A DNA stretch of 64,000 nt from an uncultured Luteolibacter sp. (GTDB lineage Bacteria; Verrucomicrobiota; Verrucomicrobiia; Verrucomicrobiales; Akkermansiaceae): assembly GCA_964458895.1 (NCBI GenBank), contig CAYWLC010000001.1, positions 26,984 to 90,983 on the forward strand, given 5' to 3'. The position numbers were made by a program, and so were the translations under genes. This document shows positions 56,314 to 62,079 of the stretch, piece by piece. The notes under the pieces are model-generated. The model was not told the origin of the DNA. It ran no database searches and was given only the letters and a program-made list of their open reading frames with translations. The number at the start of each line of letters is the position of its first letter. Position 1 is the stretch's first letter.

Positions 56314-58362
56314 ATGAAGAAACTACTTTTATCCCCTTGGCTTTCCTTAGTAACATTAGGTTTAATTATAGGGTTAAGAGTAGTTGACCCAACATTTGTA
56401 GAGAGTATTCGCCTTCGGTATTTTGATACTCTCCTTACACAAGATATTCAACAATCAGATATAAAAATAGTAAATATAGATGATGCATCCCTAAAAGAAA
56501 AAGGTCAATTCCCATTCCCTCGGAACGAATATGCTAATCTTATTAAGGATTTGTATATCCGTAATGCTGGTCTGGTGGTTTTTAATCTCTTTATGCCTGA
56601 AACTGATAGATTTGGTCAAGATGATGCCTTAACACAAGTTCTTCAGGAATATCCAGTTGTTCTACCTCAAACTGGTACTAATGAATCATTTACTGAAACT
56701 TATAAACCATTTAGACCAGGAGTTTCTGTTATAGGTACTGGTGATGTAGGAGTAAAATATGAAAACATACTTCCAAATATACAAGTCTTCAATGATAATT
56801 CTGCTGGTATTGGTGTTGTTAATACACTCCCAGAAATTGATGGCGTTACCAGACGAATCCCAATGGTGGTCAGTTCCAAAGGATTATTGTATCCGAGTAT
56901 CAGTCTCGAAACCTTGCGTGTTGCATCAGGAGATCCATCATTCCAAGTTAAAGTCAACAATGGATCAATCGAAGCAGTCAGAATACCAAAGTTCGGAAGA
57001 ATCAATACAGACTCCCTCGGTCGCATTTGGATTAAACCAAATACCATTAGTGAATATTCATCAAGCAAACTCCCAGAGTCCTTTGGTTCCGCAATCGTCA
57101 TTGTTGGACTCACTGGAAGAGGGCTCAACAACCCCGTTGCAACTTCTGCTGGATCAGTCTTTCCACATCACGTTCAAGCAGCAATTTTAGATACACTTAC
57201 AAAAGGTATAAATATCTCAAGACCCGATTGGGCAACTGGTGCAGAGTTACTTACTGTATTGGTATTAAGTATCATATCAATTTTAATAGCAAGGTGGAAA
57301 TATGGAATTCTTATATTTTGCGGCATCATTATCTCTCTTTATCCTATTTCTAATTATCTATATACCAACCTATATTATCTTTTCGATATTACATTACCTG
57401 TATTTGCAATTGTCACAGTTTATGGTCACACTTATACGGTCAAATTCTTAACAGAATTAGGTCAGAAACTCCAAATCAAAAAACAATTCGGTTCTTATGT
57501 TTCACCTATTATGGTAGAGAAACTTCAGAAGAATCCAGAATTGATTAAACTTGGTGGTGAACGTAAAGAACTTTCTATTGTTATGACTGACCTTCGGGGA
57601 TTTACTACTCTAGGTGAATCTTATGGTGATGATGTAGAAGGTCTGACTGCCATTATGAACGATTATATGACTGCTATATCAGAACCAGTATTAAAGAATG
57701 ATGGGTGTCTTATCAAGTTTATTGGTGATGCTAGTCTTCACGTTCACGGTGCTCCTTTAGATGATATCAATCACGCAAAGAATGCTGTTAAAACTGCATT
57801 AGAAATGATTGCTTCTGTTGATGGATTCAATGAAACTTTAGTAGCTCAATGTAAACCAATTATAGGTATGGGAGCAGGCGTTAATACTGGTCAAACTCTT
57901 ATAGGTAACATTGGTTCAAAGACTAGATTTGGATATGATGTATTGGGTGACTCAGTATCAACTGCTGCTAGATTGGAAGGTCAAACTAAATCGTATGGTG
58001 TATTATTAATCATTGGACCTGAAACTGCTAAACTTGTCAAAGATGATTACTTTGTTATTAAGTTGGATAACATTGCTGTAAAAGGAAAGACAGTTGGATT
58101 AGACATCTATACAGTATTACAACCAGATAGATACAATAGATTAGAGTTTGCTAACTCTAGAACACTACATAATAAGATGTTAAAGCATTATAAGAAACAA
58201 GAATGGGCATATGCCAGTACACATTGTATGGATTTGAAAGGTTCATTTGATGGTGAATTAGATTACTACTATAATATGATGAGAAAACGAATAGATGAAT
58301 ATATGAATGATGAGTCTTTCCCCAAGAACTGGAAGGGAACTTTTGTTGCAACAAGCAAGTAG
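56314..58362 (+). CDS. CHASE2-domain membrane class III adenylyl cyclase
   Basis: IVNIDD.SL...GQFPFPR and DGVTRR (CHASE2); TM helices; TDLRGFT, KFIGDA, GVNTG, YDVLGDSVSTAARLEG. Confidence 0.92.
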   Translation: MKKLLLSPWLSLVTLGLIIGLRVVDPTFVESIRLRYFDTLLTQDIQQSDIKIVNIDDASLKEKGQFPFPRNEYANLIKDLYIRNAGLVVFNLFMPETDRFGQDDALTQVLQEYPVVLPQTGTNESFTETYKPFRPGVSVIGTGDVGVKYENILPNIQVFNDNSAGIGVVNTLPEIDGVTRRIPMVVSSKGLLYPSISLETLRVASGDPSFQVKVNNGSIEAVRIPKFGRINTDSLGRIWIKPNTISEYSSSKLPESFGSAIVIVGLTGRGLNNPVATSAGSVFPHHVQAAILDTLTKGINISRPDWATGAELLTVLVLSIISILIARWKYGILIFCGIIISLYPISNYLYTNLYYLFDITLPVFAIVTVYGHTYTVKFLTELGQKLQIKKQFGSYVSPIMVEKLQKNPELIKLGGERKELSIVMTDLRGFTTLGESYGDDVEGLTAIMNDYMTAISEPVLKNDGCLIKFIGDASLHVHGAPLDDINHAKNAVKTALEMIASVDGFNETLVAQCKPIIGMGAGVNTGQTLIGNIGSKTRFGYDVLGDSVSTAARLEGQTKSYGVLLIIGPETAKLVKDDYFVIKLDNIAVKGKTVGLDIYTVLQPDRYNRLEFANSRTLHNKMLKHYKKQEWAYASTHCMDLKGSFDGELDYYYNMMRKRIDEYMNDESFPKNWKGTFVATSK

Positions 58363-58368
58363 GATATT

Positions 58369-58554
58369 ATGAAAAAAGTGTTTGGAAGAATTGTGAGTGA
58401 GATATTATATCTACTTGGTGATTGGGTTAGTTATCCAATGGCTTATCTTGATTGGGGTTGGTTATATCCAACTTATAGCAAATTGATGGGTTGGAGTGGT
58501 GATGTTCAAGATTGGGCAGGTAACGATAAACCTTGGACTAAATTAAGAGAATAA
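58369..58554 (+). CDS. Hypothetical Trp-rich protein
   Basis: 61-aa ORF with AGGA RBS. Confidence 0.6.
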   Translation: MKKVFGRIVSEILYLLGDWVSYPMAYLDWGWLYPTYSKLMGWSGDVQDWAGNDKPWTKLRE

Positions 58555-58700
58555 TGGAAGCTCAGTTCGATTTAGAAAGAATGAAAGAATCTATAGAATG
58601 CACATTCTATACCATGCCAGGAGGTCTGACATTTGAAGAATTCTTAGACTTTATGTATAAATTAGGAGAAGAAGATGAAGTGGAAAACCCCGACTTATAA
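58554..58700 (+). CDS. Small acidic hypothetical protein, 48 aa (not in ORF track)
   Basis: TAATG coupling; MEAQFDLERMKESIECTFYTMPGGLTFEEFLDFMYKLGEEDEVENPDL. Confidence 0.55.
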   Translation: MEAQFDLERMKESIECTFYTMPGGLTFEEFLDFMYKLGEEDEVENPDL

Positions 58701-58749
58701 AGATATCAGAATAGGATTTGAAGTTACTTGTTATATTTTGAATAGGTAA
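58675..58749 (+). CDS. pqqA: Pyrroloquinoline quinone precursor peptide PqqA, 24 aa (not in ORF track)
   Basis: MKWKTPTYKDIRIGFEVTCYILNR matches the PqqA pattern W..P...D.R.GFEVT.Y..NR including ExxxY; AGGAG RBS 6 nt upstream. Confidence 0.9.
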   Translation: MKWKTPTYKDIRIGFEVTCYILNR

Positions 58750-58756
58750 ATGTATC

Positions 58757-58793
58757 ACATAGTGTACATAAAGACTTATTATGCACACTATGT
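58757..58793. terminator. Inverted repeat between convergent operons (probable bidirectional terminator)
   Basis: ACATAGTGTACATAA-7nt-TTATGCACACTATGT, 15-bp arms with 1 mismatch. Confidence 0.6.
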
Positions 58794-58808
58794 ATCATAT
58801 TTAATACA

Positions 58809-59165
58809 TTATTCTTTAGCTTCAGCCATCTTTTCTTTAGTTCTACCAAAAGCAGTAATACCGATAATAGCACCCATAGATAGATGATATAATCCTCCGC
58901 CTTGTAATGTAACTGCTTGCCACATTTCTAAATGTTGTCCAGGATTCATATATTGAAGTACATTATATAGAATTGGACCAACCATAAAGTCAAATAGACA
59001 AATTGCCATATAACTAATAGCCATCATTGGTCGCCATTTAGAAGTCATAAAATCTTCTTTTACTGCAGGTGAGACTGGTGTAGGTTCTTTTGCTAAATCA
59101 ATCATTGGTTCAATTTCCTTTTTAATTACTGGTTTTCTAGGTTTTCTCACTACTATATCTGCCAT
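58809..59165 (-). CDS. Holin-like membrane protein (GTA 3TM holin-like)
   Basis: WRPMMA..Y...C.FDF...P, GG..H..MGAI.GI.A.GRT.EK; AAGGAG RBS supports a start at 59165. Confidence 0.7.
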   Translation of the reverse strand: MADIVVRKPRKPVIKKEIEPMIDLAKEPTPVSPAVKEDFMTSKWRPMMAISYMAICLFDFMVGPILYNVLQYMNPGQHLEMWQAVTLQGGGLYHLSMGAIIGITAFGRTKEKMAEAKE

Positions 59166-59166
59166 A

Positions 59167-60225
59167 TTAATTTGCTCCTTGTTTAATAAAAATTTTATTA
59201 GTGGTTGTATCTGCACTTTGCAATTTCACCGTTGTTCCATCCTGTACCAGTGTTATATTGTAACCTCGGTCTTTGTTGAGTAATAATGTAGCGCTATGTT
59301 TTACTGATCTTTGTACCATCCAATTAGTCTGTTTATCAAATATGTACACTTGATTCTGTGAATTATATCCAGGAGCAAATGTACCTACTGCAAAAGCATC
59401 TTCTAATGCATTTGCCAAATATTCTATCAATAATGCATCAACATCTAATTCATTAAACTTTGCATACGGGTCAATGAATACTCTTACAGATAAAGCATCT
59501 TTATCTAATCCATTAAAATCTAGTGATGAACCAGATTTATTATCCTCAATTAATTTTTGTGTAATCTCTTTTGGTGGTTTTACTATCATCATATTAGTAA
59601 TAGCAGATTCATTGATTAACAACACTACCGGCTTCAATGGTTTAATTTCATTTGAAGTTGTTACTGTAGCCTGAAAAGCTTGATTCAATACAACAGAACC
59701 TACCGCAGTTCTAACTTCAATTTCACCTACTGAACCATCTAAGTTAGGTAACAATATAACCATTGACTGACCAATTTCATCAACTGTCATAGTGAAAGCT
59801 GTACCTCGAACCGCTATAGTTGCTGTAGGTGTATTAATAGCCACATTCTTATTATTAGCATGCGCTATATTACCAGAGGCATATCGTACAGTACCAATAG
59901 CGCATTTCAATGCCAACTTACCGACAGACTTGTTATTAGGATCATAGACGAAATCATCTATCACCAACTTACTATTATCTGTTACTTTTACTTGTGTATC
60001 ATCATCAAAAGATATACCTACTTCACCTTTACCTGTTTCAACTATATCTAATGATTCTATACTAACATCTTTCTTTGATTCTATTACTGTTTTATCACGT
60101 GTGATAGAAGCATTGCCTTTATGATTTATTACTGTACCAATACCAGCATTAATGTTGTGTGATATTAACAGTAGCGCCAGAACCAGTAAGATTAACAATG
60201 GCCGAATTTGGATTTGTTGTTCCAT
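59167..60225 (-). CDS. Exported FecR-domain protein
   Basis: Signal peptide; D.V.T..G...I.F.D.T.V....NS.L.ID.FVYDP, TPTATIAVRGT.F. Confidence 0.85.
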   Translation of the reverse strand: MEQQIQIRPLLILLVLALLLISHNINAGIGTVINHKGNASITRDKTVIESKKDVSIESLDIVETGKGEVGISFDDDTQVKVTDNSKLVIDDFVYDPNNKSVGKLALKCAIGTVRYASGNIAHANNKNVAINTPTATIAVRGTAFTMTVDEIGQSMVILLPNLDGSVGEIEVRTAVGSVVLNQAFQATVTTSNEIKPLKPVVLLINESAITNMMIVKPPKEITQKLIEDNKSGSSLDFNGLDKDALSVRVFIDPYAKFNELDVDALLIEYLANALEDAFAVGTFAPGYNSQNQVYIFDKQTNWMVQRSVKHSATLLLNKDRGYNITLVQDGTTVKLQSADTTTNKIFIKQGAN

Positions 60226-60859
60226 CTTGACTAATTCCTATGGTATTATTGCTTCCAATATTGGATATGGCGATATTATTACCAGCAATAAGATTAGTAC
60301 CATTAGCACCAGTTTGAGTAGTTGTGATTGCATTACCAGACCCCGTTACTATAAAAGTATTCTCAGTGTATTTACTATTAATAGTGCTCGTTAAAGTGTT
60401 ATTACTACCTGTAATGTTTGAAAGATATGAATAGTTTCCAGAATCATGTAATACTCCAATATTCAATACTGATGTGTTATTACTACCCGTGAAATTTAAA
60501 CTTAAAGTACCTGAACCAGTACCCATATTACCCATATTTAAATCAGTAGAGTTGCTATTACCAGTTTGTGTAATATCAGCAGTTGCTCCGCCACCAATTA
60601 GATTACCTGTTATAGCATTATTCATACCATCTTGTATAATATCAAACAACATAGAGTTGCCTTCTATTTGAAAAGAAGGTGACCCAATAGAATCTGGGTC
60701 ACCTACAGTATTATTTGCGCCGGTTTGTGTAATATTTACAGTAGAGTTATCAGCATTAGTTTGATCAATATAAACAGAATTGCCTCCACTGTCTCCTATT
60801 GATGATTGATTTATTACTGTAAGCATAACAAACAGTAATAGATTTCTTATGATGTTCAT
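60149..60859 (-). CDS. Curlin-like (CsgA/CsgB-type) repeat protein
   Basis: Signal peptide; about 23-aa N/Q/G repeats (I.Q.G..N, TGSNN). Confidence 0.7.
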   Translation of the reverse strand: MNIIRNLLLFVMLTVINQSSIGDSGGNSVYIDQTNADNSTVNITQTGANNTVGDPDSIGSPSFQIEGNSMLFDIIQDGMNNAITGNLIGGGATADITQTGNSNSTDLNMGNMGTGSGTLSLNFTGSNNTSVLNIGVLHDSGNYSYLSNITGSNNTLTSTINSKYTENTFIVTGSGNAITTTQTGANGTNLIAGNNIAISNIGSNNTIGISQDGTTNPNSAIVNLTGSGATVNITQH

Positions 60860-61648
60860 TTAATTATTCCTAAAAGTTGTTGAAAATTTCCATAATCTTT
60901 TTCTTTCGCCTTTAATGATTAATTCTTCCACTGCTAAATCTAATGCCGATTTAAGAGCATATATTCCTGCCTCAGTCTTAGTAGCACCAACTTCATTTTC
61001 AAATGATTGTGTTCCCATATCAAAAAACTTAAATACAGCAACACCAACCGTATAACTTAATATCGTCTTTTGTACATTAATAGTGAGTAAAACCTCACCA
61101 GTTTGTGTACTGATTGCTCGTAATGAAACAGTTACCATATCTTCCTGATATTGTGTATCTGGTCCAATTCCCATATAACGAAGTCCAATACCACCAGTTC
61201 TAATATTAGTATCATACGATACTATTGATCCTTCAATTATCATACCGGCATAAAGAATCGAACCTATTTGTTTATCATCTTGTGCTTCATCCCGAGCAGA
61301 CCTAATCAATTGTCTTTCTTTTAATAAATTATCAAGTCCAACTCGTTCTACAACTCTAAACCAATTACCTTCACCGGCATCCTCCAATGACTTTAATAAT
61401 ATAGATTCACCTCCTTGTGTTACAGCAGATGATAATTTTGCTATAGTGGCAGAATCTTTCCTTTGACCTGTCTTATCTAAAAATGAATATACAGCAACAA
61501 CTACCTTACCATCTTTAGGAGGAGGTAAGATTATTTCTCTTTTTTCCTTAACTGCTAATACTTCAGGTTCATTAGTAAATACATTAAACGGAGTTAATAT
61601 ACCACCTGAACATCCAGTTAATAATATGCACAATAATATAATACGCAT
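60860..61648 (-). CDS. csgG: Curli secretion channel CsgG-like lipoprotein
   Basis: Lipobox LTGC; AVYSF.DKTGQRK, SSAVTQG, WFRVVER.GL.NL.KERQLIRS. Confidence 0.92.
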   Translation of the reverse strand: MRIILLCILLTGCSGGILTPFNVFTNEPEVLAVKEKREIILPPPKDGKVVVAVYSFLDKTGQRKDSATIAKLSSAVTQGGESILLKSLEDAGEGNWFRVVERVGLDNLLKERQLIRSARDEAQDDKQIGSILYAGMIIEGSIVSYDTNIRTGGIGLRYMGIGPDTQYQEDMVTVSLRAISTQTGEVLLTINVQKTILSYTVGVAVFKFFDMGTQSFENEVGATKTEAGIYALKSALDLAVEELIIKGERKRLWKFSTTFRNN

Positions 61649-62079
61649 TAGAATGTAAAACTACCGACAGGTATTATTACTTGTGTTACATTACCATCCG
61701 CACCTGTAATAGTCATTGATATTTGGTCAGCTGTCTTGGTATACGTTATGGTATTACCTTCAATCTGAACTGTTCCACTATTCTGTGGATTTTCACCAAA
61801 TAAGTTGTTAATCAATTGGGTTGATAATTGAGCATAAACACGACTTTCAAAGTTATTCAGAAATTTCGAAAGATTAGTGTTCTTAGCTAATGCTGCAGCA
61901 TCCTTGGCATCTTGTAATTTCTGTACCTCTAATGCTTGTTTTCTAGTTGTTTCAGTATTTTCTATAGTTTGAACATGTGAAGAATATCCTATACCACTAA
62001 AGGCAGGCGATTTAAATGAAAAGATTTGTTCTGCTAATACATTACTTGATAATAATAAAAATAATATTAGAATTCTCAT
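61648..62079 (-). CDS. csgF: Curli assembly protein CsgF-like
   Basis: Signal peptide then FSFKSPAFSG; F....ESR.YAQLS; adjacent to csgG. Confidence 0.85.
   Translation of the reverse strand: MRILILFLLLSSNVLAEQIFSFKSPAFSGIGYSSHVQTIENTETTRKQALEVQKLQDAKDAAALAKNTNLSKFLNNFESRVYAQLSTQLINNLFGENPQNSGTVQIEGNTITYTKTADQISMTITGADGNVTQVIIPVGSFTF

What the first reader, a model, noticed from the sequence alone, without database searches (positions are those of the whole stretch)
58675..58749. Unannotated phage-encoded PqqA (PQQ cofactor precursor peptide)
Seen: a 24-codon ORF, MKWKTPTYKDIRIGFEVTCYILNR, with a well-spaced AGGAG RBS and a downstream hairpin, too short for the ORF track. Established: PqqA is a peptide of about 24 aa whose Glu and Tyr (ExxxY) are cross-linked by PqqE/PqqD to make PQQ, the cofactor of periplasmic methanol, alcohol and glucose dehydrogenases. 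PqqA is consumed stoichiometrically, and methylotrophs often carry extra copies. No pqqB-E genes are in this window. Inference: the phage supplies the consumable substrate to the host pathway to sustain methanol/alcohol oxidation, or acts as a decoy for it. This points to a PQQ-dependent, possibly methano- or methylotrophic, proteobacterial host. Standard gene callers would miss an auxiliary gene this short.
Basis: partly seen in the sequence, partly recalled or inferred. Interest (0 to 1): 0.93.

Follow-up and report, generated by a model that had tools for sequence, protein, structure and literature searches.

The report
Phage PQQ precursor with unusual cysteine
A lake phage carries a real 24-codon gene for PqqA, the peptide bacteria use up to make the cofactor PQQ, and likely feeds it to the enzymes of a probably methane-eating host; phage pqqA is already reported, but this copy has a cysteine that we found in phage DNA and not in bacterial genomes.

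Summary
Confirmed. Window 58675-58749 (+) encodes PqqA (Pfam 34.7 bits, TIGR02107 38.7, both over cut-off), with an AGGAG site and a downstream hairpin. It lies on a T4-like lake-phage contig (32% GC) binned with a ~59% GC bacterium that lacks pqqB-D. The gene stands alone, keeps Glu16/Tyr20 and is syntenic in relatives. The idea is not new: a Lake Baikal T4-like phage with PqqA was published in 2020, this scan holds 211 earlier phage-pqqA findings on other DNA, and IMG/VR holds about 2,500 such stretches. New here are two things. The peptide is of the Methylococcales type (18/24 identical to Methyloglobulus and Methylomarinum peptides, 10-11/24 to Methylophilaceae), and similar peptides sit beside phage pmoC. 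It also has Cys for Met in E-V-T-x-Y: 27 viral and 41 metagenomic pqqA genes have this, and no pqqA among 185,579 prokaryote species genomes matched the pattern. Bacterial operons carry Leu, Ala or Thr there, so a working substrate is likelier (0.65) than a decoy (0.12). Host, expression and activity are inferred, not shown.

The parts
58675..58749 (+). pqqA, 24 codons; Glu16 and Tyr20 are the PQQ-forming pair; Ile13 and Cys19 differ from the nearest named bacterial peptides (Phe13, Met19)
58664..58668 (+). Shine-Dalgarno AGGAG, 6 nt before the ATG, inside the upstream 48-codon ORF
   Evidence: purine-rich variants in relatives
58747..58803 (.). AT-rich hairpin between the convergent pqqA and holin-like genes; likely a 3'-end or termination element
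   Evidence: not a canonical terminator
58554..58700 (+). 48-codon ORF (phrog_17259, unknown function) whose end overlaps the pqqA start; likely co-transcribed
58809..59168 (-). holin-like gene, the conserved downstream neighbour that marks the syntenic site
   Evidence: (below Pfam cut-off)

Best explanation
The phage encodes a stand-alone PqqA peptide that is likely made during infection and likely used by the host's PqqD/PqqE pathway as raw material for PQQ, which would keep methanol dehydrogenase supplied in a probably methane-oxidising (Methylococcales) host. Shown: an intact PqqA gene with Glu16-x-x-x-Tyr20 and a ribosome-binding site, last in a run of abutting + strand genes, no pqqB-E nearby, conserved in relatives. 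From the literature: PqqD binds the leader, PqqE cross-links Glu and Tyr, the pair is cut out, so one peptide gives one PQQ while the enzymes turn over. Inferred: host translation falls during infection, the short consumed peptide runs out first, and a 75-nt gene is the cheapest way to restore it. Cys19 lies in the linker that is discarded and is likely tolerated.
For: HMM scores over cut-off. T4-like contig: gp23, gp20, gp17, gp18, family B polymerase. No PqqB-E hit in 152 loci searched, 88 of 147 viral ones having at least 1 kb downstream; the same queries found PqqB in 4 of 4 bacterial loci. 120 of 120 sampled viral motif hits are intact pqqA ORFs, and the two commonest are identical to Methylophilaceae host peptides. 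In the holin-adjacent clade pN/pS is 0.18 over 14 distinct sequences, with Cys as TGT (10) and TGC (4). A search by the holin, independent of the motif, found Cys-pqqA beside the 3 closest holins. Nearest named bacterial peptides: Methylomarinum, Crenotrichaceae and Methyloglobulus morosus at 18/24; Methylophilaceae 10-11/24. pmoC lies on 3 of 18 Cys-type contigs and within 3 kb of 5 of 26 Leu/Ile13-type loci against 0 of 83 Phe13 loci. Bacterial pqqA genes carry Leu, Ala, Thr or Met at position 19. Methylophilaceae keep 3-12 pqqA copies for one enzyme set (PMC4109929); PqqA is expressed 20-fold above PqqC/E (PMC2294125).
Against: No expression or activity data. This phage's own contigs have no pmoC and no PQQ dehydrogenase over cut-off, though the genome is in pieces. 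Core genes do not place the host: gp23 is 63-67% and polymerase 40-46% identical to T4-like pmoC-phages and to Melnitz alike. Unnamed Gammaproteobacteria also reach 18/24. The low pN/pS is partly built in, because the search pattern fixed residues 12-20. Of 27 Cys-type viral genes, 2 lack the ATG and 1 has lost its stop. Only 4 of 80 pmoC loci have pqqA within 10 kb and 5 of 25 pmoC contigs have one anywhere, so it is dispensable for many methanotroph phages. Extra pqqAB raised PQQ only 29% in Acetobacter, against eightfold for the whole operon (PMC7936290).
Confidence: 0.65

Rival explanations
1. Working substrate, different purpose or host: the PQQ serves a sugar or alcohol dehydrogenase, or redox protection, in a non-methanotrophic proteobacterium.
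For: Marine and unnamed Gammaproteobacteria have equally close peptides; Ralstonia and Paraburkholderia reach 62.5%; no pmoC on this phage's contigs; core genes are uninformative.
Against: The named best matches are Methylococcales; this peptide subtype is the one found next to phage pmoC; the DNA occurs in lake metagenomes.
Confidence: 0.17
2. Decoy or diverter: the Cys19 peptide binds PqqD/PqqE, but the thiol would quench the Glu radical or form a Glu-Cys thioether, stalling PQQ synthesis or making another product.
For: Cys19 occurs in 27 IMG/VR and 41 metagenome pqqA genes and in no pqqA of 185,579 species genomes by the same pattern. It occurs in at least three leader types, and ATG to TGY needs three base changes. 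A related radical SAM enzyme, PapB, makes Cys-Glu thioethers (PMC10739248).
Against: Phage copies also carry Thr, Ala and Leu there, as do bacterial genes, which points to a tolerant position. One Cys-type gene lies next to a methanol dehydrogenase gene (L210) and several next to pmoC, genes that gain from more PQQ. PapB's pattern is Cys first, three residues, then the acid; here Glu comes first with two residues between. 116 of 120 sampled viral copies keep Met.
Confidence: 0.12
3. Passenger: a host gene picked up by chance, drifting without benefit; Cys19 is relaxed constraint.
For: Start or stop lesions in 3 of 27 Cys-type genes; absent from most pmoC loci.
Against: Frame, ribosome-binding site and position are kept while upstream genes and downstream DNA are replaced; synonymous changes exceed replacements; unrelated phage families carry it.
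Confidence: 0.06

Closest known systems
Bacterial PqqA (PF08042, TIGR02107), Methylococcales type
   Same: 24 residues, W3, P6, R12, G14-F-E-V-T, Y20; 18/24 identical to Methylomarinum, Crenotrichaceae and Methyloglobulus morosus peptides.
   Different: In a phage, with no pqqB-E; Ile13 for Phe and Cys19 for Met. 119 of the 120 listed homologs have Met19; the one Cys is an unnamed JGI protein.
Viral PqqA of Lake Baikal population VP_266 (Coutinho et al. 2020, PMC7678222; passages and section 9 read)
   Same: T4-like freshwater phage with pqqA, read as support for methanol oxidation.
   Different: Predicted host Methylophilaceae, and that phage also encodes methanol dehydrogenase. I did not see its peptide sequence (supplements not opened), so I cannot say whether it has Cys19.
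pmoC-phages (Chen et al. 2020, PMC7674155; passages read)
   Same: Freshwater methanotroph phages with a single host gene; several carry this peptide subtype beside pmoC.
   Different: The paper's main text has no occurrence of 'pqq' (supplements not read); this phage's contigs have no pmoC.
Unannotated pqqA of cultured methylophages (Melnitz, P19250A, MEP401, MEP402)
   Same: Stand-alone intact pqqA, over the Pfam cut-off, not annotated as such.
   Different: Methylophilaceae-type leader and Met19 in all four opened.

Membership tests
PqqA (PF08042 / TIGR02107) | Score above the curated cut-offs | tested here: met
   34.7 vs 21.1 bits; 38.7 vs 20
PqqA (PF08042 / TIGR02107) | Glu-x-x-x-Tyr near the C terminus of a 23-29 residue peptide | tested here: met
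   Glu16-Val-Thr-Cys-Tyr20 in 24 residues; motif as described in PMC2294125
PqqA (PF08042 / TIGR02107) | Conserved N-terminal leader for PqqD binding | tested here: met
   W3, P6, R12, G14 invariant in alignments A1 and A2; sequence only, binding not tested
PqqA (PF08042 / TIGR02107) | Cross-linked by PqqE/PqqD and converted to PQQ | not testable with these tools
   Needs enzymology or complementation
pqq operon (pqqABCDE) | pqqB-E next to pqqA | tested here: not met
   No PqqB/C/D hit in the assembly, only weak radical SAM hits on another contig; it is an orphan copy
Phage auxiliary metabolic gene | Lies among phage genes on a viral contig, not host contamination | tested here: met
   T4-like core genes on the contig; same site in IMG/VR relatives; one contig spans the stretch in an independent lake run
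Phage auxiliary metabolic gene | Expressed during infection and alters host metabolism | tested here: inconclusive
   Only contigs from an RNA library, which cannot show transcription
pmoC-phages | Encodes pmoC | tested here: inconclusive
   None in the assembly, but the phage genome is in unjoined pieces

The most novel reading that the evidence does not exclude
Phages have repeatedly evolved a PqqA with a cysteine between the reactive Glu and Tyr that their hosts do not use. It redirects host PqqE: it is a decoy that throttles PQQ synthesis, a faster substrate, or the precursor of a thioether-linked product. That would be a phage-specific tuning of a host cofactor pathway by one residue, in lake methanotrophs and methylotrophs alike.
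Probability: 0.15. Interest if true: 0.8.

Novelty: new variant of a known kind. Interest (0 to 1): 0.42.

Why it matters
Phage pqqA would let viruses act on the second step of methane oxidation and on methanol oxidation in lakes with 75 bases that gene callers skip. That much is published once and has been seen many times by this scan. The added value here is a phage-restricted Cys19 form: a 24-residue peptide that can be synthesised and assayed with purified PqqD/PqqE, giving a cheap direct test of substrate versus decoy and of how much the linker residues matter to PqqE.

Tried and rejected
Host from the bin: rejected. C1 is 31.7% GC in a ~59% GC assembly without pqqB-D, pmoC or a PQQ dehydrogenase over cut-off (80.6% complete), and 0 of 15 same-family genomes have pqqA. 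Two 'Acinetobacter phage' hits: dropped, they are bacterial pqqABCDE operons. The single GTDB Cys match: dropped, it lacks the W..P leader and start. Three metagenome hits inside long ORFs: dropped. Expression: contigs of two sediment RNA runs from one study cover pqqA at about 92-96% identity, but one contig spans both convergent gene blocks, so DNA carry-over is not excluded. Own T4 late promoter: the near-match at 58656 is too close to leave the ribosome-binding site in the transcript. Upstream palindrome 58592-58611 as an operator: it lies in coding sequence and only a 6-bp arm persists in close kin. Counting Cys origins on a tree: 18 changes against a shuffled mean of 46, but 60 nt cannot resolve a tree. 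Host from gp23 or polymerase: uninformative. PDB search: only short ribosomal S12 matches, E at least 0.6, and two other weak hits. No structure or complex job was run.

Full report
Observation. AGGAG begins at 58664, 6 nt before the ATG. The gene ends a run of + strand ORFs from 53034 whose gaps are all 8 nt or less and faces a holin-like gene. A hairpin between them folds better than 200 of 200 shuffles but is not a canonical terminator. By eye, some relatives have different hairpins at the same place and others none.

Setting. The window lies in contig C1 (103.6 kb, 31.7% GC) of an assembly that is otherwise about 59% GC. C1 encodes T4-like capsid, portal, terminase, sheath and polymerase. 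Three more low-GC contigs hold ribonucleotide reductase, RNase H and similar genes and may be the same phage; I found no end overlap. The binned bacterium is unlikely to be the host. Near-identical DNA is in 22 lake or freshwater DNA runs, 3 of them possible sources of this assembly.

How common. tblastn of GenBank phages gave 9 records: 7 methylophage genomes and 2 mislabelled bacterial operons. I opened 4 of the 7 (Melnitz EXVC044M, P19250A, MEP401, MEP402); each has an intact pqqA that is not annotated as such. A second query added MEP301, Venkman and one uncultured phage, which I did not open. A motif scan of IMG/VR estimated about 2,500 stretches from 4 of 64 parts. All 120 returned were pqqA ORFs, 116 with Met, 3 Leu and 1 Cys before the Tyr. 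No PqqB-E hit was found in 152 loci, with a working positive control.

The cysteine. The pattern R-x-G-F-E-V-T-C-Y found 27 IMG/VR stretches, all PqqA-like; 24 are regular, 2 lack the ATG and 1 runs on to 42 residues. In 185,579 prokaryote species genomes it found 1 stretch, which is not a pqqA. In metagenomes it found 44 stretches: 41 pqqA (some duplicating IMG/VR contigs, one cut by a contig end) and 3 chance hits, none with pqqB-E, all 41 at 30-43% GC. I annotated neighbours for 27 of the 41: most carry phage-family genes, a few short ones are uninformative, and a gene beside L184 and L210 is 100% identical in an IMG/VR contig. A profile holding both Cys and Met peptides returned 2,278 proteins; of the 120 listed, 119 have Met. 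Limits: one exact pattern was used, other PqqA subfamilies were not covered, and I have no count of Met-type genes in GTDB. Cys appears with at least three leader types. In a scan that did not fix positions 13 or 19, all 26 Leu/Ile13 loci were non-Met19, while 80 of 83 Phe13 loci were Met19; related phages are not independent counts.

Selection. Among 14 distinct sequences at the holin-adjacent site pN/pS is 0.18 and Cys is written both TGT and TGC, with the caveat that the pattern fixed part of the peptide. The holin search, free of that bias, found the Cys gene beside the 3 closest holins (89-100%) and no pqqA near the other 77.

Host. Named best matches are Methylomarinum, Crenotrichaceae and Methyloglobulus morosus (18/24), against 10-11/24 for Methylophilaceae. 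pmoC lies on 3 of 18 Cys-type contigs and beside 5 of the 41 metagenome loci, one a duplicate. The named relatives of that PmoC are gammaproteobacterial methanotrophs. Against this, unnamed Gammaproteobacteria tie at 18/24, this phage shows no pmoC, and core genes do not discriminate. I put Methylococcales at about 0.65.

Mechanism. PqqD binds the leader and delivers Glu16 and Tyr20 to PqqE (PMC10906245, passages). Changing Glu or Tyr abolishes PQQ, and PqqA is made at 20 times the level of PqqC/E (PMC2294125, passages). Methylotrophs keep several orphan copies (PMC4109929 and PMC9851590, passages). I infer that the phage copy acts as one more orphan copy during infection. Bacterial genes with Leu, Ala or Thr at position 19 make a tolerated Cys likely. 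The decoy reading rests on its absence from bacteria, its recurrence and known Cys-Glu thioether chemistry in another enzyme (PMC10739248, passages). Extra pqqAB gave only a modest PQQ gain in Acetobacter (PMC7936290, passages). Seven of 27 Cys-type aromatic-leader upstream regions have a T4 late-promoter-like ATAAATA (1.2 expected; consensus recalled), hinting at late expression in relatives, but this copy has none at a usable distance.

What is known. Coutinho et al. 2020 reported PqqA in a T4-like Baikal phage (PMC7678222, passages and section 9); they state that P19250A has none of their auxiliary genes, yet it has pqqA. A 2026 reservoir study lists viral pqqA (PMC13188868, passages). The pmoC-phage paper has no 'pqq' in its main text, and the Melnitz paper names PQQ only as a medium additive (passages). 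PMC11118758 and PMC9564219 (passages) added nothing on phage pqqA. This scan holds 211 findings with these words, including pmoC-pqqA pairs. Nine paper searches and two scan look-ups showed no account of a Cys form; the paper searches did not target it directly, subscription papers are missing and no supplements were read.

Verdict. A real gene of a known kind, in a variant that appears phage-restricted and is cheap to test. Interest 0.42.

Noticed in passing
window 56314-58362 (+) and 59167-62079 (-): A CHASE2 adenylate/guanylate cyclase, a FecR protein, a curlin-repeat protein, CsgG and CsgF surround pqqA. The Melnitz paper reports phage csgFG without curlin subunits; here a curlin-repeat protein over the Pfam cut-off is present. 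The module also lies near pqqA in L133, L149, L153 and L154.
   Followed up: partly
G000 contigs C1, C41, C129, C223: About 138 kb of 31-32% GC phage DNA is binned into a ~59% GC bacterial genome; C41 encodes a ferritin-like protein.
   Followed up: partly
L210:441-2306 and L184:6237-6803: Likely phage islands with a Cys-type pqqA: one has a full PQQ-dependent methanol/ethanol dehydrogenase upstream, the other an RnfB/RsxB gene over cut-off.
   Followed up: partly
L150:7968-8096: A pqqA next to pmoC has lost its stop and runs to 42 residues; its close relative L132 is regular.
   Followed up: no
L005:5967-6075 (Melnitz EXVC044M): GenBank annotates a hypothetical protein on the opposite strand over the real pqqA, just before tRNA-Leu.
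   Followed up: yes
L009, L010 (CAKLQF020000010.1, CAKLQH020000055.1): Records labelled 'Acinetobacter phage MD-2021a' hold a bacterial pqqABCDE operon and look like chromosome contigs.
   Followed up: yes
L209:119-1102: A phage locus with Cys-type pqqA also encodes a reverse transcriptase about 3 kb away.
   Followed up: no
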